From a virus: a stretch of DNA of 64,000 nt. Below, piece by piece: positions 2,343 to 25,234 of this stretch. Positions within the stretch are counted from its first letter, which is position 1. Every line of letters begins with the position of its first letter. The DNA lies in the IMG/VR virus record IMGVR_UViG_3300023198_000833, positions 1 through 64,000 of that record; one strand, 5' to 3'. The translations under genes were made by a program, and so were the position numbers. The notes beneath the pieces were generated by a model. The model saw only the letters and a list, made by a program, of their open reading frames with translations. It ran no database searches and had not been told where the DNA came from.

Positions 2343-2653
2343 AGCGCCCTCCTTGTAATCGGGCCGGTGCCCGGTATTCTACCGACTGGGCCTTTCAGTC
2401 TCTTTGTCTTTTTAACTTTAACGCCGCCCTTCATTTTAATTACCTGCGGTTCATCGGTCCAAAGAGCATCAGGTACCTTACCATCCTTAACACGACCTTG
2501 AACTGCGAGGCGCACGCAACCGTATAACCATTCAGACCGTGCGACTACAATACCTGAATGACCAGTGACAGTATCTTTGACTTTGTCTCCGAGTTTAATC
2601 ATAATTTTCTCCTTTAATAACTCTAATAATATTACACCGCGTTCATGGAACAT
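2339..2653 (-). CDS. hypothetical protein (104 aa, Lys-rich C-terminus)
   Basis: ORF only. Confidence 0.3.
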   Translation of the reverse strand: MFHERGVILLELLKEKIMIKLGDKVKDTVTGHSGIVVARSEWLYGCVRLAVQGRVKDGKVPDALWTDEPQVIKMKGGVKVKKTKRLKGPVGRIPGTGPITRRAL

Positions 2654-2735
2654 CGGTGACGAGCGTTACTATTTCACCAGTCAGTAATTCAACTGTAGGC
2701 TCGGTGATCATACACCAATAATCGCATTATCCAAT

Positions 2736-3578
2736 TCATCTGTTTGTCGCCTCGAAAAAGAAGTCAAATAATCTGTATAGAGCAGCCTTAACAAACGGAT
2801 AAGCGCCTTTCGATACGTCTTCAGGCAACTCATTGAAATGATACTGCCCACCTAACTCAACAGCCTGAGCAATGCCGCCCCATCGTTTCCATCGCTTACC
2901 GTTAATTACTGCATCTTCCCAGTCTGCAATATTTAATCCGTGCGTGCGAGCATAGGTAACATAGGTACGCGTTGCGATAACGCCGAGCTGCGGTGCAATA
3001 TTCCACGCTTGCAGATATTTCGCTGATTTCCAAAGGACCTCTCTATTGGTGTAATCGCTATTGTGACCTTTGAGTGGCAATCCCCAAGCGTGCATGTTTT
3101 CACATAGATCTTCATCGACAGTATTAACATTGTAACACGACCTGATTTTACAGCCGGTCGGGAATGATAGATAAGCGATTCTATCCACTGGTACTATATC
3201 GAGTAATCGATACATGTACTCAATATAATTTGGTACTGGGTCCTCACCTGTTCCAAGCTCCCATTTCATATTCGGATAATGATCTACACATTGTTTAATT
3301 AATTCGAGATCAGTAGTATGCAAATGCACATAGTCATACGGCAAATCCTCAATGTGTGCGGGGTCCTCGCCGCCCTTAAGAAAATGATCTTGAGCGATGA
3401 TTCTATTAGGCCCTACGAAATCTCGTAAGCTCTTCGGTGTGAATCCCGTATATCCACCCAGCGGATTAACTTGACTCCATGAACAAATAAATCCAATAGG
3501 TACTGGGTAATTTGTAGTCATCAAAACGATATCTTTTGAGTATGGGCTGACGTACAGCTGTGGCCAAATTGTATTCAT
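2736..3578 (-). CDS. hypothetical protein (280 aa)
   Basis: Long ORF with good coding look. No motif recognised. Confidence 0.35.
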   Translation of the reverse strand: MNTIWPQLYVSPYSKDIVLMTTNYPVPIGFICSWSQVNPLGGYTGFTPKSLRDFVGPNRIIAQDHFLKGGEDPAHIEDLPYDYVHLHTTDLELIKQCVDHYPNMKWELGTGEDPVPNYIEYMYRLLDIVPVDRIAYLSFPTGCKIRSCYNVNTVDEDLCENMHAWGLPLKGHNSDYTNREVLWKSAKYLQAWNIAPQLGVIATRTYVTYARTHGLNIADWEDAVINGKRWKRWGGIAQAVELGGQYHFNELPEDVSKGAYPFVKAALYRLFDFFFEATNR

Positions 3579-3588
3579 AATATCTCCT

Positions 3589-3876
3589 TTACCAATCTAA
3601 ATGTTTTAAACACGCAATACTAAACACAGCACCTACGGCTACATCTAACAATTCTTCTCGTATCCTAATACGATCGCCGCCGTGAACCGCTTCAATAAGT
3701 TCGGTGTATTCTTCAGTAATCATACCTAATATTTCATGTCGAGATACGAATGTTTGTGAGCTCTTTTGAATCAATCGAAGATCTAATTTTGCTTCGAGTG
3801 CTTTAAAAGCTTCGATGATTTCGCCTTCAGATACCTGTTCACGTTTCATAATCCAACATTCCTTTCTGCCCACCAA
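3589..3876 (-). CDS. MazG-like all-alpha NTP pyrophosphohydrolase (small)
   Basis: EEYTELIEAV ... REELLDVAVGAV resembles the EExxE/EELxD MazG core. Confidence 0.4.
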   Translation of the reverse strand: MVGRKECWIMKREQVSEGEIIEAFKALEAKLDLRLIQKSSQTFVSRHEILGMITEEYTELIEAVHGGDRIRIREELLDVAVGAVFSIACLKHLDW

Positions 3877-4361
3877 TCAGGCGGATCACAATCTAATTTT
3901 AAATTATTGATTTCGACAAATTCATCAACTGCTCTGGCTACACCGAGAAAATCAAAGTAATCGTGGCCGCAGATTATTCCATGTTGTTTTAATTTTGGAT
4001 ACCAACATTCAAGATCAACTTTAACATTTTTATAAGCATGACTTGCATCGATATAAATAAAGTCAAATTGATTATCATTGTATTCAATAGATGCTTCATG
4101 CGATAATGCGCGATGAATTTTTACTTTAGGATTGTTTTTAAAACGGTTTACTACTTTAGGATAATTTATTTCAATACTTTGGTTACGATGTTTAGCCGTA
4201 TGTCCAGTAATAGTAGAATCCCAAATATCTACAAGTATAAGTTGCTTTATTGGAAGACGTAAAAGTATACTGTGAGCATGATCTCCAAGTCTTACACCAA
4301 TCTCTGCACCAACTAAAGGACGCTTAAATTTATTAAATACTGCTCGCATAGCTGGTCTCAT
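3846..4361 (-). CDS. class I SAM-dependent methyltransferase
   Basis: VGAEIGVRLGDH motif I-like. FDFIYIDASH ... ICGHDY is typical of TylF/CmcI-like O-methyltransferases. Confidence 0.45.
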   Translation of the reverse strand: MRPAMRAVFNKFKRPLVGAEIGVRLGDHAHSILLRLPIKQLILVDIWDSTITGHTAKHRNQSIEINYPKVVNRFKNNPKVKIHRALSHEASIEYNDNQFDFIYIDASHAYKNVKVDLECWYPKLKQHGIICGHDYFDFLGVARAVDEFVEINNLKLDCDPPDWWAERNVGL

Positions 4362-4696
4362 AATCCAACATTCCTTTCTCTATTAATTGCAAAACAACTA
4401 TCATCGCCGTTTGATTTTTTATCGTTTATTAATATGCGATCACCATGGCTGACGCCCATGATTAAATGATCCCAGAACAATTTCTGTTCACGTAACATAA
4501 TCTCAAGTCGAGATCTGCAAGATTCTTTTCGAGCTGTCATGAGAACAATACAGCAACCTTCCTTCTCCCATAAATCAAATGAATTTTTTACGCCCGGTAA
4601 TATAAACGGCGCTTGGGACCATTGATATCCGGCACCTTTACCGTGATGCTGGAATATGCAACCGTCAATATCTATTATAATTGTTTTAGGTATCAT
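4358..4696 (-). CDS. HAD-superfamily phosphatase-like protein
   Basis: N-terminal IIIDIDGCIF (DxDG motif I). Confidence 0.45.
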   Translation of the reverse strand: MIPKTIIIDIDGCIFQHHGKGAGYQWSQAPFILPGVKNSFDLWEKEGCCIVLMTARKESCRSRLEIMLREQKLFWDHLIMGVSHGDRILINDKKSNGDDSCFAINRERNVGL

Positions 4697-5910
4697 AATT
4701 TTCTATATCCACCGTATTCCTCCCACCATGAATCATCGTTCTTACGGCCCTCGAACAAATCGTTGAGGCACTTATCTAACAAACTAAAGTCAGGTTTCGA
4801 CACTTCCCATAAGCCATCGATTAAGGCTTTACGCATACCTTCACGCTTATCAAAAAATCGAACAGCTTTTAATAAATCGCCCGGCTGACTAATTCGATTC
4901 TGAGAATCCAATGGCAAATATTTCTCGAGCGGGTCAAAGGTAAACGGTGCACCTCGCCCATAGAATAACGGCATACATCGCTGAGCTAAAAGCGTCCGTA
5001 ATTTACCAGTGTAGAAATTATCTCCAGCGGCTACGCATGGACAACATACGGCGTCGGCCAAAACTTCTACAACTTGATTAGGTTTGATCACGCCCATCAT
5101 ATACTCTGGATCATAACCTGAAAAATGCTCCCAGCCTTTACCGTACAATTTCATACCAACTATTTTCAATATTTCAATATCCGCTTCCGGCAACAAAATA
5201 TTTGACCATGCATCGTCACGCCCTCTGAATTTACAGCCATCCTTGATGTGGGCGTGGGAAACGATGGTACACGGCTTAGTCTTTTCACGCTTAACTCGAG
5301 TATGTTCGCACCAATTTTCGGCGCCGGCATATACCTCACGTACTTCGTATTGTTGAAACTTGATTGTGCGAGTCCATTCATGCGTCCGTTGAGATAAGAG
5401 AGCGTACGGAATTACATGATCCCATCCTAAACTCATTTCACCCTCTCGAGGATATGAACGCGGATCATTATTAATAACAATTCTCGGCAGCTTAAAGTGC
5501 TGTAAAATATTGAGAATCGGTCCTACGTATCGAACCCCGCATGCTTGCACGCCTGAGGCTGTTGGATTACCTATCCAGCTTAAAGTTGAAGCGTACCCCG
5601 CAATATTCACGTAAACATCAGGATCAACGGCCTCCACGTTCTCTATATCGCGGTTCCAGCACTCCTGTTGGTATTTAATTGTGGACTCATTACTGAGGCC
5701 TTGTAAGGCGGATTCGATGTAAATAAGGCCTTTCGGCAACTTGCCTCTCCATTGACCGAAGTAAACAACCTGTATGTCCTTATTTTCCAGCAAATGGTTG
5801 ATAACACCCTCTGTCTCACCTTGCTCGCCTACAGCGCTATTTAAGGCCGCCTGTTCACGTGTATAGAACACACCGCCTACCTTACTAATCAATACTGTTT
5901 TCATTTCCAA
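4693..5910 (-). CDS. hypothetical protein (405 aa), possible glycosyltransferase
   Basis: Size and context only. No firm motif. No visible similarity to T4 alpha/beta-glucosyltransferases. Confidence 0.3.
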   Translation of the reverse strand: MEMKTVLISKVGGVFYTREQAALNSAVGEQGETEGVINHLLENKDIQVVYFGQWRGKLPKGLIYIESALQGLSNESTIKYQQECWNRDIENVEAVDPDVYVNIAGYASTLSWIGNPTASGVQACGVRYVGPILNILQHFKLPRIVINNDPRSYPREGEMSLGWDHVIPYALLSQRTHEWTRTIKFQQYEVREVYAGAENWCEHTRVKREKTKPCTIVSHAHIKDGCKFRGRDDAWSNILLPEADIEILKIVGMKLYGKGWEHFSGYDPEYMMGVIKPNQVVEVLADAVCCPCVAAGDNFYTGKLRTLLAQRCMPLFYGRGAPFTFDPLEKYLPLDSQNRISQPGDLLKAVRFFDKREGMRKALIDGLWEVSKPDFSLLDKCLNDLFEGRKNDDSWWEEYGGYRKL

Positions 5911-6512
5911 TATTCCTCATAAGTTTTAATGGTTCCAATGTCCCACCAATTCGGGTCATGTATTACAATTGCTTCACCGTCAATCTTTTTAAGAAACTCT
6001 AATGTATCCTGATAATGATGAGCCCATTGAATAGCATCTCGATCTAATTGCATCCAGCCTGCTAATTGTCGACCGCGGTACCAAGTTAACGCTCCTGATT
6101 TAATCGGATCATCAATCGCCATTACTGTATGGCCGATTGGTTTTGGGTCTTCAAGTTCAACTGAATAAACATTATCACAAAACGCAACAATAACTCGATC
6201 TTCAAAACCGAGAGCCGTATCTGGCAATAATTGACTAATGGCCATCGGTACACCGAGCGGCACTTCTTGAACTAAATATTCGATAGGTTCGTTAGGGTAG
6301 TAATGCTTAACAATCAATGGGATAATACTGTTAGATGGAATCACAATACTTATGGGAGTTATTTTTGATCGTATAAAGAAATCAATACTGGAAGTTATAA
6401 CTGGCTTATGATTACGTAATGGTAATAACGGTTTATTCGGTAGGCGAGTTGCTAAGCCTCCTGCTAAGATCAATCCTCGATTCATTTTATCATCCTTAAT
6501 ATTGCCGGCCAC
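5901..6512 (-). CDS. sugar-phosphate nucleotidyltransferase (MurU/RmlA-like NTP-transferase)
   Basis: N-terminal GLILAGGLATRLP is the GGxGTRL signature of sugar-1-phosphate nucleotidylyltransferases. Confidence 0.55.
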   Translation of the reverse strand: MAGNIKDDKMNRGLILAGGLATRLPNKPLLPLRNHKPVITSSIDFFIRSKITPISIVIPSNSIIPLIVKHYYPNEPIEYLVQEVPLGVPMAISQLLPDTALGFEDRVIVAFCDNVYSVELEDPKPIGHTVMAIDDPIKSGALTWYRGRQLAGWMQLDRDAIQWAHHYQDTLEFLKKIDGEAIVIHDPNWWDIGTIKTYEEYWK

Positions 6513-16072: not shown

Positions 16073-16231
16073 ATAAAAATAAAGTTTTTTCATATTTTTT
16101 TCATATTTTTTTTGGCTGTTGTAAGTAGTTGAAAACAAACAACTTACAGATGTCATTTCAGCCTCTACAAGCATCATACGAGCCTTCTTACCTTTCGGCA
16201 TACAATCAATCGAGCTATTCCTTAAAGTTTG

Positions 16232-18148
16232 TTAGAGCTTAATCTCACCGTCATCGCTGGAGGCTATCGACCAATTCTTATCTGACATTCCGCACGAAAC
16301 TCGAATAGGTACACGGAAGTTTACGGAGGTCGATTCAAACATAGTTGCAATTTGTTTTAAGACACGTTTATCTTTTGCAACTTCAATCGGAGCATACATA
16401 ACTGTTTCATCATGTACACTTGCACAAAATTTAATACCGTGATCTTTCATCCACTTAAAATATCGTGGCGCTGTTGCAACCGTTCGTTCTTTAATTAAAT
16501 CAGCAGCACTCGATTGTATGATCGTATTGAAAGCTCGGTAAGCAGCTTTAGTAGGCAGCTGCCGTTGACGACCATAAGCGTTAAAAACGTAACCTCGAGC
16601 AATTAAGTTATTCGCTGCTTGCTGTGTAACGCGTTTTAAACCTGGCAAAGTATCGTGATAGGTTTGGTAAACCTTTTCTCCTCGCTTAAGACAAAGTAAG
16701 TCAAATAGTTGACCTCGTTGACTGGGTTTGATTTTTTCTTGCTTTATAAATTCTTCAACTGTAGCTGACAAGTCGCTTACTAATTCCATGTTAGCCGCAA
16801 GCATCGATACGACTTTCTTCTTGCCGCCGCCGTACCCGATACAAAAGTTTACGTTTTTAGCGGGCTTACGCGGAATGCCGCACATCTCTGCTACCCACGT
16901 ATGAAAGTCCGTATCAGCGTCTTCTTGATAAGCAGCAATTGCAGCGACGTCTTTAATGTAGTGAATGATAAGTCGAAATTCAACTTGACTATAATCATAT
17001 CGAATAATAACATATCCTTTGGGCGGATGAATTAATTCTTTAGCGGCAGGTGACAATTGCTGAGAGTTAGGTCGACGACAAGACATACGTCCAGTCCTAA
17101 CAATCTGGTTGTAGTCGGGATGCATCAGGCCGTTAACATTATGTTCTTTATACGGGGCTATGAAAAAGTTATGCAAGGTATGCAGCTTACGATAGGTTTG
17201 TATTTTTTTAACGATAGTTGTAAGCTCTTCTGATTCTTGGACAAACGGGTGTGCTCGGTAGGAAGTTAAAGTATCTTTATCGAAAGATGGATCACCTTTA
17301 TCAGTATATCCTAAAACTGGAAGACCGTACTTATTACATAGTACTTCAAAACAATCTGCATTCGTGTGTGGTCGAATTGGAATTCCAGTTAAATGATCAA
17401 GCTCCTCTTCAAGTTTTGATAAATGATATAATGTCGTTAATTGTTTTTTGTCTAATTCGAGTGGGTCAACATATAAGCCGGTTACTTCCATATCGTATAA
17501 GACCGGAGTAAGTTTTGTCTCTGTCTCCCAGACTCCAAGCGTTTGCTCATGTCGTCGTCTTAATATATGTCGGTGCAATTTTCTATTACTAAGAACATCT
17601 TGACAACCGTACTCTCCAATTATATCGCCCGGCACATCACCGTAGTCTTTACTATTGCATCCAGTTAAGTATGCATTCAATCGATTCTCAACTTTTGAGA
17701 TATCTTCTTCAAGCCATTCTAACGATAATGCACTTAAGCTATATTCATATCGATCTGACTGTACTATTTTTGAAAGAGCTAACGTGTCAATCAATTTACA
17801 ATTAAAATCGATTCCATCTTGAGCAATAAAATGAGCATCGAATTTTATGTTATGGTTCACCCATTCTTCACAGCTATTAATAATTTCATCAATCCAATTT
17901 AAAACAGGTTGCAGCGGCACATTCCATTTCTCATGATTACATCTAATAGGTACGTACCAAGCGGGTTGATGTTTATCCGCAGTTATGCAAATGCCAGCAA
18001 CACGGTGACCGTGATATGGACGAAAAGCCTTAACCTTTCGATCAAAGGACGTAGTCTCCATATCACAGTACAAGTGTGTTGCGTTTTTAAGATTAGGCAA
18101 TTCGCTAACATCTTGAACTAATCGCCCACCGTTTTCAAAATTAAGCAT
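16232..18148 (-). CDS. family A DNA polymerase with 3'-5' exonuclease domain (T7-like)
   Basis: Exo I LYCDMETTS. Motif A RYDYSQVEFR. Motif B RKPAKNVNFCIGYGGG. Motif C SVHDET. Confidence 0.85.
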   Translation of the reverse strand: MLNFENGGRLVQDVSELPNLKNATHLYCDMETTSFDRKVKAFRPYHGHRVAGICITADKHQPAWYVPIRCNHEKWNVPLQPVLNWIDEIINSCEEWVNHNIKFDAHFIAQDGIDFNCKLIDTLALSKIVQSDRYEYSLSALSLEWLEEDISKVENRLNAYLTGCNSKDYGDVPGDIIGEYGCQDVLSNRKLHRHILRRRHEQTLGVWETETKLTPVLYDMEVTGLYVDPLELDKKQLTTLYHLSKLEEELDHLTGIPIRPHTNADCFEVLCNKYGLPVLGYTDKGDPSFDKDTLTSYRAHPFVQESEELTTIVKKIQTYRKLHTLHNFFIAPYKEHNVNGLMHPDYNQIVRTGRMSCRRPNSQQLSPAAKELIHPPKGYVIIRYDYSQVEFRLIIHYIKDVAAIAAYQEDADTDFHTWVAEMCGIPRKPAKNVNFCIGYGGGKKKVVSMLAANMELVSDLSATVEEFIKQEKIKPSQRGQLFDLLCLKRGEKVYQTYHDTLPGLKRVTQQAANNLIARGYVFNAYGRQRQLPTKAAYRAFNTIIQSSAADLIKERTVATAPRYFKWMKDHGIKFCASVHDETVMYAPIEVAKDKRVLKQIATMFESTSVNFRVPIRVSCGMSDKNWSIASSDDGEIKL

Positions 18149-18593
18149 TATTTAAATCTCGTATCAATCCTTGAATATAACTCTCATGCACGATGCATAC
18201 ACCCGCTTGTTTAATTAAATCTTCTCCGAAGCCATCTCGATAATCTTCACTCCAAACGACACCTATAATTTTACCGCAGTTCAACATCACGCTGGCACAA
18301 TGGTGGCAAGGTTTTCTCGAGGTCCATAAAATACTGGGTTTAGCCAAATCGTTATTGAATTTAGCGATTGCATTTACTTCGGCGTGCGCACATCCACAAG
18401 CGGCGACATTATCAAATTTACAATTATCATTTGGTAGGCCACGCGGCGGACCGTTATATCCGATAGCATATATCGCCGAACAATCCGTTGGAAAAATTAT
18501 ACATGCGACTTGAAGTCGACCGCATGTCGATAATCCAATTAAATGCTTACCCATATCGATAAGCGTTTTAATCTTTTTCTCCTGACGCTTCAT
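18141..18593 (-). CDS. dCMP deaminase (CMP/dCMP deaminase zinc-binding family)
   Basis: CAHAEVNAI and PCHHCASVM (the HxE ... PCxxC signature). Confidence 0.65.
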   Translation of the reverse strand: MKRQEKKIKTLIDMGKHLIGLSTCGRLQVACIIFPTDCSAIYAIGYNGPPRGLPNDNCKFDNVAACGCAHAEVNAIAKFNNDLAKPSILWTSRKPCHHCASVMLNCGKIIGVVWSEDYRDGFGEDLIKQAGVCIVHESYIQGLIRDLNNA

Positions 18594-19140
18594 GTTTAGT
18601 TCTCCTTAAAAGTAAGTGCACGATTTCTTGTACAAATTGTTGATCACTACTTGGAAATTCTTGTCTATCATTCATCGTATAAACAAAATCTATATCACAT
18701 TCCCAATCAGTACCGCCATGAGCAAGATCTCGATAATATTCGTTTACGTCGATTATTTGTTGAGCTTCAAATAATTCGTTACGCTGATGATATTTTTCAT
18801 CGAGTTGTTTTTTAAGCCAGTCTTGTTCAGCTACAATTAATACAGTGACTGATTGATTGATTCGAAGCCAGCCGTCAAGTTCACGATAATCATCTGGACT
18901 GATTTCTGAGTGACCTCGAATCGTGTTGCCGTAAGCGACCTCAGATAAGATAAATCGGTCCATACATACTCGCTGATTGATAAACGGTATATAGTCTTCG
19001 AAATAATCCCAAACATCGGCTTTCGGCAATTTACCAAAGTGTTGATAAATTATTGGGTAACGATACAGCAGCGTCTGTTTGATTAATTCATTACATAAAG
19101 TTGTCTTGCCAACTAAATCTGTTCCTTCAATGATTAGCAT
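18568..19140 (-). CDS. (d)NMP kinase, thymidylate-kinase-like P-loop kinase
   Basis: MLIIEGTDLVGKTT P-loop. Confidence 0.55.
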   Translation of the reverse strand: MLIIEGTDLVGKTTLCNELIKQTLLYRYPIIYQHFGKLPKADVWDYFEDYIPFINQRVCMDRFILSEVAYGNTIRGHSEISPDDYRELDGWLRINQSVTVLIVAEQDWLKKQLDEKYHQRNELFEAQQIIDVNEYYRDLAHGGTDWECDIDFVYTMNDRQEFPSSDQQFVQEIVHLLLRRTKHEASGEKD

Positions 19141-20068
19141 TATTTAATGCCTCCAATAAAATAGGTGAACGTGGCTTATGTACTGGTTTGCCAAATTGAT
19201 GACTACAGCAGACGACTATGTCATATAAAAAATCACTAAGCCTAATGCACTCTTCAATTCCAGTTAAGCCTTTTCGATAGCGGCCCTCTGCACAAAGTGC
19301 TTGCTGAATTTGTTCATGCCAATCCATCGTAAGGTCATTACTCCACTCATGTTCGAGCCGCCACCAATCTGTCTCATAGTGTTCACTATGAAGAGCTTCT
19401 TCAGCGGCCACCCAATTCTTTTCATACAGATGCATACTGCCAACTTGATGCGTATATACTCCGCACGGTAATCCAAGCGCCCGACTAACTAACTTTTGAA
19501 TACACGTAAATGTAAATATATCGTATGGAAGCCCAAGCCAAGCATCGTTACTTCGCATCGTCGTTATCAAGTGTAGATACCCATTGCGTATAAAAAACTG
19601 CAAAGAAAGTGTGCAAGGTAGATCTTTATGATTTTTCATAACAGCGTAATGTAAGTCATCGGCATTCCATAATGTTAAGATTGCCTGCCTTGAATCGGGC
19701 GTATGTCTTAAATGATTTATCAATAAAACTAATTGAGAGGTGTTCTTAACGATACTGAGATTCTCATATAGACGCCACCCATAGGCGCCATGCGCTTCAC
19801 CGTCTTCAGCAAACTTTTCATATTGAGGAGCATACGCTTTTATCATCTCGATTTTTTTAGTATGTTTCATATACCATAAAAATTCAGCACAGCCGTATAT
19901 CGGTGATAGTTTACGCCGACGATTTAATAAAAAATTATTAGCTGGCGAATATAGTTGTGTACTGAATCCGATTAGCTCTTTTGTTTTCCCTACTCGACTA
20001 TTAGCATCTGGAGCTTCCAAAAGCTGTTCAATTGTATTCATCCATAAGCGATCAATGCATCTCCACAT
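19127..20068 (-). CDS. thymidylate-synthase-family pyrimidine C5-hydroxymethylase/methylase, probably dCMP-specific
   Basis: Aligns with ThyA: PDSRQAILTLWNADDL, catalytic PC in DLPCTLSLQFFI, HLY. It has PYD where ThyA has PFN, i.e. Asp at the Asn177-equivalent position. Confidence 0.7.
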   Translation of the reverse strand: MWRCIDRLWMNTIEQLLEAPDANSRVGKTKELIGFSTQLYSPANNFLLNRRRKLSPIYGCAEFLWYMKHTKKIEMIKAYAPQYEKFAEDGEAHGAYGWRLYENLSIVKNTSQLVLLINHLRHTPDSRQAILTLWNADDLHYAVMKNHKDLPCTLSLQFFIRNGYLHLITTMRSNDAWLGLPYDIFTFTCIQKLVSRALGLPCGVYTHQVGSMHLYEKNWVAAEEALHSEHYETDWWRLEHEWSNDLTMDWHEQIQQALCAEGRYRKGLTGIEECIRLSDFLYDIVVCCSHQFGKPVHKPRSPILLEALNNANH

Positions 20069-20069
20069 T

Positions 20070-21275
20070 TCAGTTCTCCCTAAAAGGTGGTAAGTAATTT
20101 GTTAAGTTAAAAATCTTTTCAACTGGACGATTCGTTTTTTGATATTCGTTACCTATCCACGCATCGCAACGACCGCAATATCTTGACTCAAAATCTTCAT
20201 CCCCCCAAGCGTTTTCAAAATACAGTTTTATCTGTTCGCCTAACCATTGTCCAGTAGCTGGCACTACGCCTTTACCTATTTGCCCAACTGGGTCAGGACC
20301 TACTGGTATAAAGCCTTTAGGCCAGCCCATCAGCTTCGCTATCTCGCCGACAGTTAACGGGCGTGGTAATATGTGGTGAATTAAACGGGCGCTTGTAGAG
20401 CATATTGTAGGACAGTGGCCGTCTATTTTTAATCGAGTAGGACAATGCAAACTGAATGGAATACCGGAAGTTCGAGTTATCCATTTTTCATAATGCTCCG
20501 GAGATATTTTTTCAAGGTCATCTTCGTTGTGCATAGCGAAACTATTAAAGTCATCGCCTTGACCAAGATGCGGTACTAATATTTTTTCAGTTGGAGTTAA
20601 ATTGACATAAGTATCTTGTGTGTAATCGAGATTCGATTTTCCGTAGACCTTACCTTCGTGTACTTTCCTTTTCATCAACGGTTTTAATATGTCACCGACT
20701 GTTACTCGAAACTTCGGTAAGACTGGCGGAATTATGTTAAAGTTTCGATTCTTTTTATACGCAACGAAAAAATATCGCCTACGCTTTTGAGCATTACCTT
20801 CAGCGGCTGTATTGACGAACAAATGAGCGATCCTATATCCATTTGGAACAAATAAATCGTCTCGTAAAATATTAAGCAATTGTTTACCAATAGAAAATGC
20901 TTGCTGCACGCTTTCAAAAGCTATCAAGTCTAAGTTATTATGAATCCCAAACTCGCATAGGTCCCAAATATCTCTTGTAGGTTTTGCTGTTGGTCCTCGC
21001 ACTGTTCGATCTGAACCAGAACTATAACTCGAAAAAGCTGTACATCGAGGATTCCCATAACAAAAAGAACAGTCTTTATAAGTCGATTTAAAATCCGCCC
21101 ATGCTTGCCAACTATCCGCATTCATAAACTTCGTATCATGAGCTTCGCACGTTTGCCTACCAAAGTTATGAATCTCTAATTGTCCTACGATGTCATGGAC
21201 TTGTTTCATGCCCATCGTAAAGCCACCTGCAAATACGTGAATTCCGATTCCTTTCATGTTTGTGTCTCCAACCAA
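20070..21275 (-). CDS. DNA (cytosine-5)-methyltransferase-family protein with atypical catalytic loop
   Basis: Motif I HVFAGGFTMG. Motif IV GNPRCTAFS (PRC instead of PC(Q)). Motif VI FESVQQ (ENV-like). Motif VIII NAQKRRRYFFVA. Confidence 0.55.
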   Translation of the reverse strand: MVGDTNMKGIGIHVFAGGFTMGMKQVHDIVGQLEIHNFGRQTCEAHDTKFMNADSWQAWADFKSTYKDCSFCYGNPRCTAFSSYSSGSDRTVRGPTAKPTRDIWDLCEFGIHNNLDLIAFESVQQAFSIGKQLLNILRDDLFVPNGYRIAHLFVNTAAEGNAQKRRRYFFVAYKKNRNFNIIPPVLPKFRVTVGDILKPLMKRKVHEGKVYGKSNLDYTQDTYVNLTPTEKILVPHLGQGDDFNSFAMHNEDDLEKISPEHYEKWITRTSGIPFSLHCPTRLKIDGHCPTICSTSARLIHHILPRPLTVGEIAKLMGWPKGFIPVGPDPVGQIGKGVVPATGQWLGEQIKLYFENAWGDEDFESRYCGRCDAWIGNEYQKTNRPVEKIFNLTNYLPPFREN

Positions 21276-22093
21276 GATTGAATTTCTAACATACTTTTAG
21301 CAGGCAAAAATAATTCGTCCCAACGCTTATGCGTACCAGCGCACGCATGCCAACCATCGCGGCATTCTTTTACATCAACCGTTCGCATCGATTCATATCC
21401 TGTAACTCCACCTTCAGTGATTGCTATCCACCAAGAATCTAAAGAGTCATGCCATCGTCGTTCAATTCTTACTGGAATAAATTTAACTTGCCCAGTTATA
21501 CAATGCGTCCTTCGAGCTTGTACATATAGATGACTCATTCGATGACGATGACGATTTAGTATTTCTTTTAAATTCGGTGGCTTATAATCCGCACCTTTAT
21601 CGCGTAACCGAATGTCATCTTTTTTACGTGCGTTCTTTGTTAAGTTTGAATCACAGATTTCATTAAGGCCACGAATAAACGGTAACGCAAAAGCAATGGC
21701 TGTTCCGATTGTAACAAACCCGAGATCACTTAAGCCATCTAACACTTCGATCTCATTCTTATCAGCTAACGCCTGAACCGTTTCGCCTAATTCTTCAATC
21801 AATAATTGAGATCGGCGTAATCGTAGATCGTCATGTATTAACATTTGAGCTTCAATATGCTTTGATATGTTTATTAAACTTTTTGCAGCCTCTCCTAACA
21901 TGCGATCAACGTGTTCATCAGTTTTAAGTCCACCTAACAATACGTGTCGAGTGAAATTATGCTTTTGCATGAACTTGTCTGTTTTCTCTACTAACTCTTG
22001 CATTTTCGATCTCCTTAATATTATTGTTCCAATGACTTGTAGTATTTTTAGAATTACACGACCAACAATTAGATAGCGTTTCTTTACTAACAA
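21254..22093 (-). CDS. MazG-like NTP pyrophosphohydrolase domain protein (candidate dCTPase) with unknown C-terminal domain
   Basis: IEELGETVQAL ... EVLDGLSDLGFV. The real start is probably the internal Met near 22003, because the listed start overlaps the upstream gene. Confidence 0.4.
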   Translation of the reverse strand: MLVKKRYLIVGRVILKILQVIGTIILRRSKMQELVEKTDKFMQKHNFTRHVLLGGLKTDEHVDRMLGEAAKSLINISKHIEAQMLIHDDLRLRRSQLLIEELGETVQALADKNEIEVLDGLSDLGFVTIGTAIAFALPFIRGLNEICDSNLTKNARKKDDIRLRDKGADYKPPNLKEILNRHRHRMSHLYVQARRTHCITGQVKFIPVRIERRWHDSLDSWWIAITEGGVTGYESMRTVDVKECRDGWHACAGTHKRWDELFLPAKSMLEIQSWLETQT

Positions 22094-22134: not shown

Positions 22135-22389
22135 TTATCTTTGATCTTGACGCTCGTTATGTAAATTGATTGAGGGTTTTAAAATCGCACCGTTGTTTTG
22201 AATGTCTGCCCATGACCAACTCTCTGCACCTTCAACATGAAGCCTAAATTTTATCTCATCTTTAGATAATTCTGGATGATTTGTGTCTCGCAATACTTGC
22301 TGAACTTTTTCTGATATTTCCCTTTTTTGTCTAATTGAAAACATTTTGTTATCCTTAAAATTCCTCTGCAATAAAGTCTGGTCTATCAC
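22135..22389 (-). CDS. hypothetical protein (84 aa)
   Basis: ORF only. Confidence 0.3.
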   Translation of the reverse strand: MIDQTLLQRNFKDNKMFSIRQKREISEKVQQVLRDTNHPELSKDEIKFRLHVEGAESWSWADIQNNGAILKPSINLHNERQDQR

Positions 22390-25222
22390 ACATTTTCATT
22401 TCATCTGACGTAAGTAAGTTCTTTAAAAACTCAATAAATTTTGGAGACTTTCGATAAGCACGCCCATCACGTTGTAAAGCATGTTTACGAACAAGCAACG
22501 ATAGTAATTGAGTCGCCGCGCTTTTCTCCCAACCGCACCAGTCGCAGATATCTCGAAGTTCAATTTGATTTGTGTATAGCATTTGCTTTACAAAGTCGAC
22601 TGGGAACGGAGTTTGTAGAATACGCTTGCCTAATATCTCAGCATCAAGTAACGTGTTACTCATATTAAGCGCGGCTGAAAAATCTTTATATCCAAATATA
22701 GTATCTGAATAAGTTTTTTCAAGAAAGTTCGAGATATATTTAACGTGTGCTTCATGTACGATTAAAGTTTCAAAATCATTAGTTGAAAAAGTTCTACAAG
22801 CTAAGGAGGTTGCTAATCGTAATAGCTTAAATCGCATCGACCCTCTATCGACAATAGGAATCGCTTCAGTAAATATCGAACATAGTCGAGTCGCTTCAGT
22901 AAGTGCTGCATTGACTGCATTTTCAGTAAAGGTTATTTGATCAGGTTCTCGAGTCCATGCCCATAAAATTAAATTTCGACATAGGCTCTTCGTAAAGCGA
23001 TGTTTTACTTTAGGTCGATATTGTTGAAGACGGTTTAATTTGTCAACTTCGATTTGATCAGCAGAGGTTAATAGAATAGCGTCGAATCGTCTGATGTCTT
23101 CAAGCCCACCAATTAATTCCTTCACTGCTTCGATACCAAAATTATAAACGGATAGCGGTCGATCACTTCGTGGATTGCTTACCATTATTAATCGCGTGCG
23201 AGCATGCGTTCTCCTTTTTTCAATTTTTGGAATCTCTGCTACGCCTGACGACCGCATATCCGTTAATTTACCGATGACTTCAGTACTCGTTCCTTTAATT
23301 TCTTCAAGAATAACAATACGCTTATCATGCGTGGGAATCACCCCCCACGTAACAAACCAACGCGAGCCGATTTGCTGCAAGCCACCTAACAAACCAGCAA
23401 CCGTTGCGTTTTTACATTCAACTCTTTCGCCTAATTCATAATGCTCCATAAGACGTAAAATTGTTTCTGACTTGCCCTGTGAACTATCGCCCGTAATTAA
23501 AGTTTCAACCCATCCTTTTGTTAACTTATTATCAAATTTAAATAATAGTGCACTGTGATACGTAAGGTCTATAAGAAAATGTAATGGTTGTCGCTCAAAG
23601 ATATGTGTAATGTTTGCTGATAGATCTGAATAGATTCGATTTAAAATATCGTCAAGTCCTTCAAGTGTCCATTTCTTAGGTTGAAATATTTTTAATTTCC
23701 GAAGTTCAGTTTTTGAAGGTTTATAATTTGACAAAGCATCTTTTGTTGTTTCCGATTCACTGGCTAAAATAATTGATTGCTGTGTTTTAGGATGCGGGTA
23801 CATTCGGCCGATAAACTCATAGTTTTCATTCGTCTCTAAACCATGTCCGATACATAAAGCAGGTTGTAGTATATCATCGACTGAACGCGAGCTTATTTCA
23901 AGTTGAGGTGATAACCTAACATCTTCGACATTAAAATATTCAACAGGAGCAAACTCAACTACTTTGCAATGCGGTAATTTTAAACCTGACATAATTGCTT
24001 CATGTTGAGAGACTTTTGAAGCAGCTACCATTTCTAATATAGCGGGCGATTCAGGATGTAAGTCTAAGACTGTGATACCGTCATCATTCGGCGTTTCAGC
24101 GTACACTGGGCAGAGGCTGCAACAATCTTGATTACGTTCACAAAATACGTTTAGCTTTTTTGGGATCACGTATGGGGCCGTGTCCATTGCTGAAACAGTT
24201 GCTTTAATCTTAATTCGTTTACCAGTATGTTCAGCTTTCGATGCTTGATTTAAATGAAGGTTAAGTATGTTCCCATCATCTATCTGATCGAACTTAGTCG
24301 TCATTGACCATTCAGCCGTTTCAGCGATGAGGTGTAAGAAATCATTTGAAGTTTTTTGTTCAATCCCAAAGTAATCATTAATGTCACCTTTAGGATACTT
24401 ATCTAAATCAAGTGGTAAGTTTATTTTTCCAATAAAGTCTACATCTTTTTTGAGACGAGCACAAACTGAATCTGCTGCGATATTTCCTTCTTTGTCAACA
24501 TCAAAACAAATGTATACGCACTTCCTTAAAAATCGTTTATTGAAATCGACATGCCAGTTGCCTTCGCCAGATGTAGCAGTTATTGCTCCGATGCCGTGTT
24601 TATTTAATTGATCTGCAGCTACAATTGCTTTGATTTCACCGCCACATACTATAACTGTTTCGTATTTTAATTGCTCGAGTGGAAATAATCGAAGGCGCCC
24701 ATGACCACGTTTGTTTTTCATCTTTTGTGGGCCTGGTGCACTTGGTAAATAACGTCGAACATTTACGCATAAATCATTATCGTTTGTTATCGGAATTGAG
24801 ATTCGACCATTATCTAATCCTAGTCGATATTTTCGTATGAGGTCATCAGTTACACCCCGCTTATATAATTCTTTAAGGAATAATTCCGCCGTCCAAATTG
24901 CTTCGTGCCATCGTTCAACTGCGGTACTATCGATTACTTGAACACTTTCAAAATTATAACGAGTTGAAAGCTCCTCCCACATTACTCGCCGAGTCGTTTT
25001 TAATATCTTGGCTAAAAGCGTAACTATATCGCCTGTTGCTTTACAGCCAGCGGTATGGCACTTAAACAAATTCTTTTTAGTATTAACACTGCAGCTGGGA
25101 TTCTTATCGGCGTGAAATGGACACTTGATTTTCACCTCATCATCCGTGGCGAACTCATACGTACATTCACATCGCTCAAGCTCAGCTAACGCGCTTATAG
25201 TTATAAGTTGTTGTTCATCCAT
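22355..25222 (-). CDS. DNA primase-helicase (zinc-ribbon primase + TOPRIM + P-loop helicase)
   Basis: CPFHADKNPSCSV...FKCHTAGC CHC2 zinc finger. Walker A GDSSQGKSE in the C-terminal half. Confidence 0.7.
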   Translation of the reverse strand: MDEQQLITISALAELERCECTYEFATDDEVKIKCPFHADKNPSCSVNTKKNLFKCHTAGCKATGDIVTLLAKILKTTRRVMWEELSTRYNFESVQVIDSTAVERWHEAIWTAELFLKELYKRGVTDDLIRKYRLGLDNGRISIPITNDNDLCVNVRRYLPSAPGPQKMKNKRGHGRLRLFPLEQLKYETVIVCGGEIKAIVAADQLNKHGIGAITATSGEGNWHVDFNKRFLRKCVYICFDVDKEGNIAADSVCARLKKDVDFIGKINLPLDLDKYPKGDINDYFGIEQKTSNDFLHLIAETAEWSMTTKFDQIDDGNILNLHLNQASKAEHTGKRIKIKATVSAMDTAPYVIPKKLNVFCERNQDCCSLCPVYAETPNDDGITVLDLHPESPAILEMVAASKVSQHEAIMSGLKLPHCKVVEFAPVEYFNVEDVRLSPQLEISSRSVDDILQPALCIGHGLETNENYEFIGRMYPHPKTQQSIILASESETTKDALSNYKPSKTELRKLKIFQPKKWTLEGLDDILNRIYSDLSANITHIFERQPLHFLIDLTYHSALLFKFDNKLTKGWVETLITGDSSQGKSETILRLMEHYELGERVECKNATVAGLLGGLQQIGSRWFVTWGVIPTHDKRIVILEEIKGTSTEVIGKLTDMRSSGVAEIPKIEKRRTHARTRLIMVSNPRSDRPLSVYNFGIEAVKELIGGLEDIRRFDAILLTSADQIEVDKLNRLQQYRPKVKHRFTKSLCRNLILWAWTREPDQITFTENAVNAALTEATRLCSIFTEAIPIVDRGSMRFKLLRLATSLACRTFSTNDFETLIVHEAHVKYISNFLEKTYSDTIFGYKDFSAALNMSNTLLDAEILGKRILQTPFPVDFVKQMLYTNQIELRDICDWCGWEKSAATQLLSLLVRKHALQRDGRAYRKSPKFIEFLKNLLTSDEMKMCDRPDFIAEEF

Positions 25223-25234
25223 GAGAAAAATAAA

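What the first reader, a model, noticed from the sequence alone, without database searches (positions are those of the whole stretch)
18141..22093. T4-like dCMP modification pathway in a non-T4 genome: ThyA-family enzyme with Asp at the Asn177 position, dNMP kinase, dCMP deaminase, MazG-like dCTPase candidate
The 313-aa protein aligns end to end with thymidylate synthase (PDSR..LWN, catalytic PC, HLY), but the substrate-specifying PFN is PYD. Asp at this position is the known switch from dUMP to dCMP. It is natural in T4 dCMP hydroxymethylase, and the ThyA N177D mutant methylates dCMP. A P-loop dNMP kinase, a dCMP deaminase and a MazG-family NTP pyrophosphatase flank it in one operon with the DNA polymerase. 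These four genes are the set needed to replace dC with 5-hydroxymethyl- or 5-methyl-dC at the nucleotide level. Given the many glycosyltransferases elsewhere, the likely product is 5-hmC that is then glycosylated.
Basis: partly seen in the sequence, partly recalled or inferred. Interest (0 to 1): 0.75.

Follow-up and report, generated by a model that had tools for sequence, protein, structure and literature searches.

The report
Phage operon for hydroxymethylcytosine DNA
An uncultured tailed phage carries an operon that most likely replaces cytosine in its DNA with 5-hydroxymethylcytosine before replication, as phage T4 does; this kind of pathway is already known, but the operon also holds an unusual DNA cytosine-methyltransferase-like gene whose role does not fit the simple model.

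Summary
Window 19127-20068 (-) encodes a 313-aa thymidylate-synthase-family protein with Asp183 at the E. coli ThyA Asn177 position. At all eight residues I took as diagnostic it matches T4 dCMP hydroxymethylase. These include Asp at Leu143 (hydroxymethyl rather than methyl product), Asp kept at Asp169 (not a 5-hydroxy-dCMP synthase) and Ser/Arg at the deoxyribose-selecting sites. Its closest solved relative, in sequence and in the predicted fold, is the CMP hydroxymethylase MilA.

It sits in a run of overlapping genes: MazG-like pyrophosphatase, C5-methyltransferase-like protein, ThyA-like enzyme, thymidylate-kinase-like P-loop kinase, dCMP deaminase, DNA polymerase A. The module recurs in 83 related metagenomic phage loci.

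The partners are analogues of the T4 proteins, not detectable relatives. dCTPase specificity and glycosylation remain inference. The pathway type is already published for metagenomic phages.

Its family is almost always found with the Asp-type ThyA homologue. It has Lys where natural and engineered carboxymethyltransferases carry the cationic residue that selects carboxy-SAM. A cytosine C5 transferase has no obvious substrate if all cytosine is already hydroxymethylated. This is unexplained.

The parts
19127..20068 (-). MilA/gp42-type pyrimidine hydroxymethylase of the thymidylate synthase superfamily; predicted dCMP hydroxymethylase (313 aa)
   Evidence: PF00303, E 5.7e-26. Best solved relative is MilA, E 3.5e-31. 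The AlphaFold2 model (pLDDT 93) matches MilA over its full length (TM 0.82-0.85), whereas thymidylate synthases match only the core (TM about 0.6). Family profile against T4 gp42: 98.8% probability, E 1.4e-16. Diagnostic residues: Cys152, Asp149, Thr153, Ser173, Asn174, Asp175, Asp183, Arg127.
18568..19140 (-). P-loop nucleotide kinase of the thymidylate-kinase/YorR type (190 aa); predicted kinase for hm-dCMP
   Evidence: Invariant GxDxxGK(T) P-loop and DR motif. The family profile hits SPbeta YorR (2axp) at 3.1e-13 and thymidylate kinases at 4e-5. 20 of 32 family members hit PF02223. A homologue is found in 46 of 83 related loci. The substrate is inferred.
18141..18593 (-). dCMP deaminase (150 aa)
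   Evidence: PF00383, E 2.3e-11; phrog_174, E 2.1e-23. Best solved relative is chain 4p9c, deposited as a deoxycytidylate deaminase, E 3.1e-09, with HAE and PCxxC aligned.
20070..21257 (-). Divergent DNA cytosine-C5 methyltransferase-family protein (395 aa from the ATG). Motif IV is NPRCT, motif VI is ESV, motif VIII is QxRxR, and motif X is QIGKGVVP with Lys in place of the usual Asn. Function unresolved.
   Evidence: PF00145, E 1e-14. The AlphaFold2 model (pLDDT 93) best matches M.HaeIII (E 6e-18); the carboxymethyltransferase CmoX (8yf3) ranks 10th. Lys329 aligns with CmoX Arg350 and M.HhaI Asn304. The motifs are nearly invariant in 120 homologues. 32 of 34 IMG/VR loci with this family also carry the Asp-type ThyA homologue. 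Its start codon overlaps the MazG stop codon as ATGA.
21254..22003 (-). MazG-like all-alpha NTP pyrophosphohydrolase (249 aa) with an extra C-terminal domain of about 100 aa; candidate dCTPase and/or dUTPase
   Evidence: PF01503, E 1.7e-05; phrog_671, E 7e-16. Acidic residues E70, E71, E74, D89 and D93 are invariant or nearly so. The family profile hits D. radiodurans DR2231 at 4e-13. The ATG at 22003 follows AAGGAG. A homologue is found in 49 of 83 related loci.
16232..18148 (-). Family A DNA polymerase with 3'-5' exonuclease domain; last gene of the run (context)
   Evidence: PF00476, E 3.7e-40; PF01612. It overlaps the dCMP deaminase gene by 8 nt. A homologue is found in 60 of 83 related loci.
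22355..25222 (-). Primase-helicase (context; upstream end of the replication module)
   Evidence: PF01807 CHC2 zinc finger and a weak MCM P-loop match. 44% identical to the homologue in the Manatee Spring phage MW202657.
29344..36192 (-). Cluster of glycosyltransferase-like genes, SAM-methyltransferase-like genes, a radical SAM/SPASM gene, a ParB_N-methyltransferase fusion and an MptE-like gene. Possible post-replicative decoration of hmC; the link is unproven.
   Evidence: Pfam hits. Sequences. Window proteins from 29344-31070 found a homologue in at most 2 of the 83 related loci; the rest of the cluster lies beyond the 10-kb flanks and was not tested.
1239..6512 (-). Possible sugar-nucleotide supply genes: cupin/mannose-6-phosphate-isomerase-like, Methyltransf_24, HAD phosphatase and nucleotidyltransferase. 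The link is unproven.
   Evidence: Pfam hits.

Best explanation
The genes from 18141 to 22003 form one operon of a siphovirus-type phage. The operon makes 5-hydroxymethyl-dCTP for the phage's own DNA polymerase.

Proposed steps:
1. The ThyA-family enzyme (19127-20068) uses Cys152 to attack C6 of dCMP, which it selects through Asp183. It takes the one-carbon unit from methylene-tetrahydrofolate. Because the active-site entrance carries Asp149 instead of a hydrophobic Leu, water adds to the exocyclic methylene and the product is 5-hydroxymethyl-dCMP.
2. The adjacent thymidylate-kinase-like kinase phosphorylates this to the diphosphate. A host nucleoside diphosphate kinase makes the triphosphate.
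3. The polymerase encoded at the end of the operon incorporates it.
4. The MazG-like pyrophosphatase returns competing triphosphates (dCTP, dUTP or both) to monophosphates.
5. The dCMP deaminase diverts part of the dCMP to dUMP for thymidylate synthesis, which suits a 40% G+C genome.
6. The hydroxymethyl group may then be decorated by the distant glycosyltransferase and methyltransferase cluster.

Shown here: the family assignments, the specificity residues, the gene arrangement and its conservation. Inferred: every substrate and product, the extent of replacement, and any glycosylation. The embedded C5-methyltransferase-like enzyme is not explained by this scheme. It suggests that replacement is incomplete, or that a second cytosine modification exists.
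For: - Specificity residues. In E. coli numbering, positions 126, 143, 147, 165, 167, 168, 169 and 177 read R, D, T, M, S, N, D, D. T4 gp42 is identical at all eight. MilA is identical except at the two ribose-selecting sites.
- Published rules for these residues. N177D gives dCMP, L143D/E goes with hydroxymethyl products, and D169N marks 5-hydroxy-dCMP synthases (PMC13326640). MilA A176S/K133R switches preference from CMP to dCMP (PMC5175136).
- Homology. Best solved relative is MilA (3.5e-31). The predicted fold matches MilA at TM 0.82-0.85. The family profile matches T4 gp42 at 98.8% probability. NCBIfam thymidylate synthase equivalog scores are far below their cut-offs (86 against 327 bits).
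- Selection. Asp149, Cys152, Thr153, Asp175 and Asp183 are invariant in 29 relatives.
- Operon. Neighbouring genes overlap or lie 1 nt apart, including an ATGA overlap. Terminator-like sites in the region are no more frequent than in shuffled sequence.
- Conservation. Homologues of the primase-helicase, MazG-like protein, kinase, deaminase and PolA accompany the ThyA-like gene in related loci. One relative, L004, also encodes ThyX, a separate thymidylate synthase.
- Literature. TS(N177D), PRA-PH and dCMP deaminase co-occur on metagenomic phage contigs experimentally enriched for modified cytosine (PMC8670742).
- No DHFR, second ThyA/ThyX or TET-like oxygenase was found among the window ORFs scanned.
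Against: - There is no biochemical or DNA-composition evidence. The phage is known only from a metagenome.
- The L143 rule is a correlation, not a proven determinant.
- A conserved cytosine-C5 transferase homologue sits in the same operon. It needs an unsubstituted C5, which argues against complete replacement of dC.
- The MazG-like protein's nearest solved relative is DR2231, a dUTP-specific enzyme by my recollection, so depletion of dCTP is not established.
- The kinase family has no characterised member; YorR is deposited as an uncharacterised protein.
- The glycosyltransferase cluster is not conserved in the relatives I could examine and lies next to tail genes, so it could serve another purpose.
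Confidence: 0.72

Rival explanations
1. The ThyA-like enzyme is a dCMP methylase of the kind expected in Xanthomonas phage Xp12. The genome then carries 5-methylcytosine in place of cytosine.
For: Asp at position 177 is also what turns ThyA into a dCMP methylase (N177D). The Xp12 homologue also has Asp177 and sits next to a dCMP deaminase. BLASTP identity to the Xp12 protein (30%) is about the same as to T4 gp42 (27%).
Against: The Xp12 enzyme has Asn143, Pro147, Leu165 and Ser168, where the window protein has Asp, Thr, Met and Asn, as in T4 gp42 and MilA. Xp12 has a gene noted as dihydrofolate reductase beside its enzyme; none was found in the window ORFs scanned. The fold and C-terminal domain are those of the hydroxymethylase MilA.
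Confidence: 0.07
2. Replacement of dC is only partial, and the phage carries two cytosine C5 modifications. Hydroxymethyl-dC is incorporated during replication. The C5-methyltransferase-like enzyme then methylates, or carboxymethylates with host-made carboxy-SAM, the remaining cytosines in its recognition sequence. This extends the main explanation rather than opposing it.
For: - The MTase-like family keeps the residues for covalent attack on cytosine (Cys72, Glu115, Arg159, Arg161) and the motif II Glu28. In CmoX the corresponding Glu-47 binds the cofactor ribose.
- Lys329 aligns with CmoX Arg350, which binds the carboxyl of carboxy-SAM. A cationic side chain at the matching site of M.MpeI (N374K) gives carboxy-SAM use.
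- 32 of 34 loci with this family carry the Asp-type ThyA homologue, even where gene order is rearranged.
- The MazG-like protein's nearest solved relative is DR2231, which I recall as a dUTPase, so dCTP may persist.
Against: No CmoA homologue was found in the window or in 117 related loci (NCBIfam). Motif IV is NPRC, not the SPPC used to define CmoX. No ligase-type partner was seen. Only 25 of 83 ThyA-like loci carry the gene, so it is dispensable for the pathway.
Confidence: 0.3
3. The enzyme is a 5-hydroxy-dCMP synthase like RB69 gp48 or DLP3 gp80. The DNA would carry glycosylated 5-hydroxycytosine.
For: It belongs to the same superfamily, and Asp177 and an acidic residue at 143 are shared. 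Many glycosyltransferase-like genes are present in the window.
Against: The diagnostic D169N change is absent: Asp175 is invariant in the family. The RB69-type homologue from phage JK45 has Asn169, Gln168 and Val173, unlike the window protein.
Confidence: 0.03
4. The pathway ends in a modified thymine. The adjacent deaminase converts hydroxymethyl-dCMP to hydroxymethyl-dUMP. Alternatively the enzyme acts on dUMP directly, giving 5-hydroxymethyluracil DNA as in phage SPO1 or M6.
For: A dCMP deaminase lies two genes downstream. From my own knowledge, some dCMP deaminases accept 5-substituted dCMP. Cultured phages with 30-36% identical homologues include groups credited with thymidine hypermodification.
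Against: The dUMP hydroxymethylase of phage SP10 has Asn at 177, and the window protein has Asp. No aGPT-Pplase or hydroxymethyl-dUMP kinase domain was seen in the window ORFs scanned. TS(N177D) with a deaminase is associated with modified cytosine in MetaGPA.
Confidence: 0.05

Closest known systems
T4 gp42 dCMP hydroxymethylase and the T-even hmC pathway (gp42, gp1 dNMP kinase, gp56 dCTPase/dUTPase, cd dCMP deaminase, alpha/beta-glucosyltransferases)
   Same: The logic is the same: a thymidylate-synthase-family enzyme that acts on dCMP, a kinase, a triphosphatase and a dCMP deaminase, encoded with the replication genes. The hydroxymethylase is a true homologue (98.8% hhalign probability) and matches gp42 at all eight specificity residues examined.
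   Different: Identity to gp42 is only 27%, and the protein has an extra MilA-like C-terminal helical domain. A profile of the kinase family finds no chain named as a dNMP kinase among solved structures at E <= 1. The genome is a siphovirus type of at least 64 kb with a family A polymerase, not a T4-like myovirus. T4 has no C5-methyltransferase-like gene in this pathway (my own knowledge).
MilA, CMP 5-hydroxymethylase of Streptomyces rimofaciens (mildiomycin pathway; PDB 5b6d, 5jnh)
   Same: It is the closest solved relative by sequence (E 3.5e-31; 34% identity) and by predicted fold (TM up to 0.85), including the C-terminal helical domain. Asp is shared at positions 143, 169 and 177, and Thr at 147.
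   Different: MilA has Ala176 and Lys133, which favour CMP. The window protein has Ser173 and Arg127, the pair that switches MilA to dCMP. The context is a phage replication operon, not an antibiotic gene cluster.
Metagenomic phage contigs with TS(N177D), PRA-PH and dCMP deaminase (MetaGPA, eLife 2021), and ThyS-associated DNA glycosyltransferase pathways (bioRxiv 2023.12.21.572611)
   Same: The domain combination is the same, and in MetaGPA it was found on contigs experimentally enriched for modified cytosine. An association of ThyS with GT-A and GT-B enzymes is reported as a pre-replicative hypermodification route.
   Different: I found no mention of an embedded C5-methyltransferase-like gene in the parts of those papers I read. 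No carbamoyltransferase is present here. I did not check whether this particular clade was among their contigs.
CmoX, the phage DNA cytosine C5-carboxymethyltransferase (Synechococcus phage S-B43; PDB 8yf3), and engineered M.MpeI N374K
   Same: The neighbouring 395-aa protein has a C5-methyltransferase fold. It has a conserved cationic residue (Lys329) at exactly the position of CmoX Arg350, M.HhaI Asn304 and M.MpeI N374K, the site that selects carboxy-SAM.
   Different: The residue is Lys, not Arg. Motif IV is NPRC, not SPPC. No CmoA or amide ligase partner is present. The gene is paired instead with a dCMP hydroxymethylase homologue.

Membership tests
Pyrimidine (dCMP) hydroxymethylase branch of the thymidylate synthase superfamily (T4 gp42 / MilA type) | Thymidylate synthase fold with the catalytic Cys (E. 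coli C146) | tested here: met
   PF00303, E 5.7e-26. Cys152 aligns with C146. The AlphaFold2 model matches MilA and thymidylate synthases.
Pyrimidine (dCMP) hydroxymethylase branch of the thymidylate synthase superfamily (T4 gp42 / MilA type) | Asp at the Asn177 position (cytosine rather than uracil substrate) | tested here: met
   Asp183, invariant in the family. Rule.
Pyrimidine (dCMP) hydroxymethylase branch of the thymidylate synthase superfamily (T4 gp42 / MilA type) | Acidic residue at the Leu143 position (goes with a hydroxymethyl, not methyl, product) | tested here: met
   Asp149 in D-L-P-C-T, as in T4 gp42 and MilA. At least 100 of 120 homologues read D-x-P-C-T. Rule.
Pyrimidine (dCMP) hydroxymethylase branch of the thymidylate synthase superfamily (T4 gp42 / MilA type) | Deoxyribose-selective pair Ser167/Arg126 (against Ala/Lys in the CMP-preferring MilA) | tested here: met
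   Ser173 and Arg127. Rule.
Pyrimidine (dCMP) hydroxymethylase branch of the thymidylate synthase superfamily (T4 gp42 / MilA type) | Conversion of dCMP and methylene-tetrahydrofolate to 5-hydroxymethyl-dCMP and tetrahydrofolate | not testable with these tools
   Needs an enzyme assay, or the in vivo incorporation assay of PMC13326640.
Canonical thymidylate synthase ThyA | Asn177, hydrophobic Leu143 and His147, with scores above the curated equivalog cut-offs | tested here: not met
   The residues are Asp183, Asp149 and Thr153. The best NCBIfam thymidylate synthase score is 86.5 bits against a cut-off of 327. The C-terminal segment is replaced by a MilA-like helical domain.
5-hydroxy-dCMP synthase (RB69 gp48 / DLP3 gp80 type) | Asn at the Asp169 position | tested here: not met
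   Asp175 is retained and invariant. Rule.
T4 gp1-type dNMP kinase | Detectable homology to a solved dNMP kinase | tested here: not met
   A profile search of all PDB sequences at E <= 1 lists YorR, thymidylate kinases and other P-loop proteins, but no chain named as a dNMP kinase.
Thymidylate-kinase-like P-loop nucleotide kinase | GxxxxGK(S/T) P-loop together with a DR(Y/F/H) motif | tested here: met
   G6, D8, G11, K12, D61 and R62 are invariant in 32 family members. 20 of 32 members hit PF02223.
MazG-like all-alpha NTP pyrophosphohydrolase acting as dCTPase | MazG/PRA-PH domain with conserved acidic residues of the kind that bind metal in this family | tested here: met
   PF01503. E70, E71, E74, D89 and D93 are conserved. 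The family profile matches DR2231 at 4e-13.
MazG-like all-alpha NTP pyrophosphohydrolase acting as dCTPase | Preference for dCTP over hydroxymethyl-dCTP | not testable with these tools
   The nearest solved relative is DR2231, which I recall as dUTP-specific. Specificity cannot be read from the sequence.
CmoX DNA cytosine C5-carboxymethyltransferase | C5-methyltransferase fold with a cationic residue at the M.HhaI Asn304 position | tested here: met
   Lys329 aligns with CmoX Arg350. Lys is present in 114 of 120 homologues. Fold match.
CmoX DNA cytosine C5-carboxymethyltransferase | SPPC motif IV and Arg350, as used by Yang et al. to define the family | tested here: not met
   Motif IV is NPRC in 117 of 120 homologues, and the cationic residue is Lys, not Arg. 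Definition.
CmoX DNA cytosine C5-carboxymethyltransferase | Phage-encoded carboxy-SAM synthase CmoA nearby | tested here: not met
   tblastn with E. coli CmoA finds nothing below E 0.29 in the window or in 117 related loci. No NCBIfam CmoA hit for the window's methyltransferase-like ORFs.
Ordinary SAM-dependent DNA cytosine-5 methyltransferase (Dcm type) | Motifs IV (PC), VI (ENV), VIII (QxRxR) and X (GN) | tested here: inconclusive
   The fold, Cys, Glu and QxRxR are present. The motifs read P-R-C, E-S-V and G-K. The TIGR00675 score is 33 bits against a cut-off of 100. Only 5 of 50,697 GenBank phage records hit at E < 1e-5.

The most novel reading that the evidence does not exclude
The PRC/Lys C5-methyltransferase-family enzyme is found almost only beside Asp-type ThyA homologues. 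It may not be an ordinary 5mC methyltransferase but a new kind of DNA cytosine-modifying enzyme. One possibility is a natural Lys-type transferase that uses carboxy-SAM or another anionic SAM analogue, so that the genome carries two different C5 modifications. A more radical possibility is an enzyme that takes 5-hydroxymethylcytosine itself as substrate. It would use covalent attack at C6, with the Lys placed next to the exocyclic carbon, to exchange the hydroxyl for another group. That would be a new route to hypermodified cytosine.
Probability: 0.25. Interest if true: 0.8.

Novelty: new variant of a known kind. Interest (0 to 1): 0.45.

Why it matters
Taken alone, the ThyA-like operon adds one more uncultured phage lineage to the known set that builds modified cytosine at the nucleotide level. 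This is useful for annotation. Such genes are routinely mislabelled 'thymidylate synthase', and these genomes resist restriction enzymes, some CRISPR nucleases and standard sequencing chemistries.

Two things go beyond that.

1. The enzyme belongs to a MilA-like clade with deoxy-type residues. I found no characterised phage member of this clade. It would give a second, independent lineage of dCMP hydroxymethylases against which to test the published residue code.

2. A conserved pairing of a pre-replicative hydroxymethylase with a cytosine-C5 transferase homologue that carries the cofactor-switching cationic residue is not described in the papers I could find. The pairing makes a concrete prediction: either mixed cytosine modifications in one genome, or an enzyme that works on 5hmC. 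Either would be relevant to phage anti-restriction biology and to enzymatic tools for epigenetic sequencing.

Tried and rejected
- Nucleotide similarity of 16000-25300 to 50,697 GenBank phages: no match. The nearest deposited record is an uncultured Manatee Spring phage, detected only at protein level (44% identity).
- Exact look-up of the window's ThyA-like protein in the contig index failed, so the sample of origin is unknown.
- Canonical thymidylate synthase: rejected on residues and on curated score cut-offs.
- 5-hydroxy-dCMP synthase: rejected because Asp169 is retained.
- A TET/5mYOX route to hmC: no such domain in the ORFs scanned.
- A phage CmoA to feed a carboxymethyltransferase: not found in the window or in 117 loci.
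- A carbamoyltransferase as in MetaGPA: not seen in the ORFs scanned.
- The MetaGPA supplements hold no Pfam accession tables as text, so the association of PF00145 with modified contigs could not be checked.
- The 415-aa gene beside the hydroxymethylase in the Manatee Spring phage is not a homologue of the methyltransferase-like protein and has no Pfam match.
- Promoter and terminator consensus scans gave no more sites than shuffled sequence and say nothing firm about operon boundaries.
- Two literature searches found no paper that pairs a C5-methyltransferase homologue with a thymidylate synthase homologue.

Full report
**What is in the sequence**

The window is one strand of a tailed-phage genome, about 40% G+C, with every gene on the minus strand. 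It runs from a terminase, portal and HK97-type capsid gene (about 58-64 kb), through tail genes that include a 1666-aa ORF, to a replication module and small early-type genes.

The finding's coordinates cover five tightly packed genes, read 5' to 3' on the minus strand:
- a MazG/PRA-PH-like pyrophosphohydrolase;
- a C5-DNA-methyltransferase-family protein;
- the 313-aa thymidylate-synthase-family protein;
- a P-loop kinase;
- a dCMP deaminase.

A family A DNA polymerase follows directly, and a 955-aa primase-helicase lies upstream. Neighbouring genes overlap by 4 to 26 nt or lie 1 nt apart. The methyltransferase-like ATG overlaps the MazG stop codon as ATGA. The MazG-like gene most likely starts at the ATG at 22003, which follows AAGGAG, and not at the TTG the ORF list gives. 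Consensus scans for terminators found no more sites than in shuffled sequence. This is best read as one operon.

**The ThyA-family protein**

It matches Pfam Thymidylat_synt at E 5.7e-26. Against curated NCBIfam thymidylate synthase models it scores only 86 bits, where the cut-off is 327.

Among all solved structures its best sequence match is MilA, the CMP 5-hydroxymethylase of the mildiomycin pathway (E 3.5e-31). True thymidylate synthases follow at 1e-20 and weaker. An AlphaFold2 model built on 29 relatives (pLDDT 93.2) superposes on MilA over its whole length, TM 0.82-0.85. This includes the C-terminal helical domain that MilA has and ThyA lacks. Thymidylate synthases match only the core, at TM about 0.6. 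The claim that it aligns end to end with ThyA is therefore only partly right. A profile of the family aligns with T4 gp42 at 98.8% probability, E 1.4e-16.

**Specificity residues**

I aligned the protein with six reference enzymes:
- E. coli ThyA;
- T4 gp42 (my recalled sequence was 100% identical to record M37159);
- MilA;
- the thymidylate synthase homologue of Xanthomonas phage Xp12, whose DNA carries 5mC;
- the gene annotated as dUMP hydroxymethylase in Bacillus phage SP10;
- an RB69-type homologue from Shigella phage JK45.

In E. coli numbering the window protein reads Arg126, Asp143, Cys146, Thr147, Met165, Ser167, Asn168, Asp169 and Asp177. T4 gp42 is identical at every one of these. 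MilA differs only at 126 (Lys) and 167 (Ala). The Xp12 protein has Asn143, Pro147, Leu165 and Ser168. The SP10 protein has Asn177. The JK45 protein has Asn169.

Published work gives meaning to these positions:
- N177D switches the substrate from dUMP to dCMP.
- An acidic residue at 143 goes with hydroxymethyl rather than methyl products.
- D169N marks the recently discovered flavin-dependent 5-hydroxy-dCMP synthases (PMC13326640).
- The MilA double mutant A176S/K133R reverses preference from CMP to dCMP (PMC5175136).

By all four rules the window enzyme is a dCMP hydroxymethylase. The residues are under selection. Asp149, Cys152, Thr153, Asp175 and Asp183 are invariant in 29 relatives of 40-61% identity, and 115 of the 120 best homologues carry S-N-D...D.

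**The partner genes**

- *Deaminase.* It has the HAE and PCxxC zinc motifs. Its best solved relative is chain 4p9c, deposited as a deoxycytidylate deaminase.
- *Kinase.* As a single sequence it is weak. A 32-member family alignment shows an invariant P-loop and a DR motif. Its profile hits the uncharacterised SPbeta protein YorR (3e-13) and then thymidylate kinases. No chain named as a dNMP kinase appears at E <= 1.
- *MazG-like protein.* Its acidic residues are conserved, and its best solved relative is Deinococcus DR2231. From my own knowledge DR2231 is a dUTP-specific enzyme. A dCTPase role is therefore plausible but not shown.

The pathway resembles T4's in logic. Only the hydroxymethylase was shown here to be related to its T4 counterpart.

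**Relatives**

The large protein database holds 1382 homologues at E <= 1e-10, all from metagenomes. Three metagenomic contigs and 80 IMG/VR loci were fetched. Within 10 kb of the ThyA-like gene, window proteins find a homologue in this many of the 83 loci:

| Protein | Loci with a homologue |
|---|---|
| DNA polymerase A | 60 |
| MazG-like | 49 |
| Primase-helicase | 48 |
| Kinase | 46 |
| Methyltransferase-like | 25 |
| dCMP deaminase | 20 |

One relative (L004) also encodes the flavin-dependent thymidylate synthase ThyX. This fits a non-thymidylate role for the ThyA-like gene. The nearest GenBank record is an uncultured phage from Manatee Spring, whose gene is labelled 'pyrimidine hmase'.

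**How new this is**

The kind of pathway is already known:
- MetaGPA showed that thymidylate synthase domains with Asp177, PRA-PH domains and dCMP deaminase domains co-occur on phage contigs experimentally selected for modified cytosine (PMC8670742).
- A 2023 preprint reports widespread association of phage thymidylate synthase homologues with DNA glycosyltransferases.

Window 20070-21257 encodes a 395-aa protein with the C5-DNA-methyltransferase domain (PF00145, E 1e-14). Its model is confident (pLDDT 93.1), and its best structural match is M.HaeIII.

It is far from ordinary enzymes of this class. Only 5 of 50,697 GenBank phage records match at E < 1e-5. It scores 33 bits against the 100-bit cut-off of the dcm superfamily model.

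Its motifs are nearly invariant across 120 homologues: NPRCT in place of the usual PPCQ-type motif IV, ESV in place of ENV, QxRxR, and QIGKGVVP in place of the GN(S/A)V motif X.

In a profile alignment, the motif X Lys329 falls exactly on Arg350 of CmoX and on Asn304 of M.HhaI. CmoX is the natural phage DNA cytosine carboxymethyltransferase, and its Arg350 binds the carboxyl group of carboxy-SAM (PMC12783734). Introducing a cationic side chain at the matching site of M.MpeI (N374K) confers use of carboxy-SAM (PMC13288465).

I found no CmoA homologue in the window or in 117 related loci. Any such cofactor would have to come from the host.

**Linkage of the methyltransferase-like gene to the hydroxymethylase**

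- Of 34 IMG/VR loci that encode this family, 32 also encode the Asp-type ThyA homologue.
- In 30 of those, it lies directly downstream.
- The two exceptions are contigs cut off at or near the gene.
- The pairing holds in members only 29-33% identical. It also holds in one locus (L116) with a rearranged gene order. The PRCT and Lys signatures are still present in these.
- The reverse does not hold: only 25 of 83 ThyA-like loci carry the gene.

Part of this pattern could be vertical inheritance within one phage lineage, and several of the loci are near-duplicates. Even so, the family was not seen anywhere else.

A cytosine-C5 transferase needs an unsubstituted C5. Its presence therefore conflicts with complete pre-replicative replacement of dC. 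I see three possible explanations:
1. Replacement is partial and a second modification is added to the remaining cytosines. I favour this one.
2. The enzyme acts on other DNA.
3. It has evolved to work on 5-hydroxymethylcytosine itself. This is speculative.

None of these can be decided from sequence.

**Glycosylation**

Between 29344 and 36192 the window carries several GT-A-like glycosyltransferase genes, a nucleotide-diphospho-sugar transferase, three class I methyltransferase-like genes, a ParB_N-methyltransferase fusion, a radical SAM/SPASM protein and an MptE-like protein. Between 1239 and 6512 it carries cupin/isomerase-like, nucleotidyltransferase and HAD phosphatase genes.

But one glycosyltransferase has only a marginal match to the TET-associated DNA glycosyltransferase family (E about 1e-3). 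The part of the cluster within reach of the 10-kb flanks is absent from the related loci, and the cluster abuts the tail genes. I rate glycosylated hmC as possible, not likely.

**Verdict**

The core interpretation, a dCMP hydroxymethylase in a nucleotide-level cytosine replacement operon, is well supported by residue-level evidence, predicted structure and conserved context, with confidence about 0.7. No chemistry was tested.

On its own this is a new member of a known kind. The conserved Lys-bearing C5-methyltransferase-like partner makes the operon a variant that I did not find described. That partner is the part most worth an experiment.

Noticed in passing
window 20070-21257 (-): A divergent C5-DNA-methyltransferase-family gene lies between the MazG-like and ThyA-like genes. 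Motif IV is NPRCT, and motif X has Lys at the position of CmoX Arg350 and M.HhaI Asn304. In IMG/VR, 32 of 34 loci with this family also carry an Asp-type ThyA homologue.
   Followed up: yes
window 21254-21560 (-), C-terminal part of the MazG-like protein; also L002:5544-6278 and L008:7864-8613: The MazG-like protein carries an extra C-terminal domain of about 100 aa, with conserved stretches (GGVTG.ES.R, GW.ACAGT, LFLP..SM). Only the two closest relatives share it. Most family members stop after the MazG domain. No Pfam match.
   Followed up: partly
window 29344-36192 (-): A dense cluster sits directly upstream of the tail genes. It holds three or four GT-A-like glycosyltransferases, a Nucleotid_trans protein, a radical SAM/SPASM protein, three class I methyltransferase-like proteins, a ParB_N-methyltransferase fusion (31566-32546) and an MptE/CST-I-like protein (35545-36192). 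Its target (DNA, virion proteins or host surface) is unknown.
   Followed up: partly
window 1239-6512 (-): Possible sugar-nucleotide genes (cupin/mannose-6-phosphate-isomerase-like, Methyltransf_24, HAD phosphatase, nucleotidyltransferase), together with a 405-aa ORF that has no Pfam match.
   Followed up: no
window 10437-11168 (-): A 243-aa protein matches the uncharacterised family DUF7873 over its full length at E 2.8e-83. This is by far the strongest Pfam hit in the window.
   Followed up: no
window 11335-11408 (-): A single tRNA-Lys (anticodon TTT) gene lies among the small early-type genes.
   Followed up: no
window 6599-7603 (-): An SPFH/Band 7 family protein (E 4e-22), an unusual domain for a phage genome.
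   Followed up: no
L002:12416-13315, L003:12458-13336, L004:9173-10978: Relatives vary the module. Two carry a radical SAM (plus or minus SPASM) gene directly after the DNA polymerase gene. One carries an MT-A70 adenine methyltransferase and ThyX between the kinase and the polymerase, and lacks the C5-methyltransferase-like gene.
   Followed up: partly
window 25304-27143 (-): Proteins matching the Pam3 phage gp34-like and gp32-like families sit between the SNF2 helicase and the primase-helicase. The same order is seen in the related contigs.
   Followed up: no
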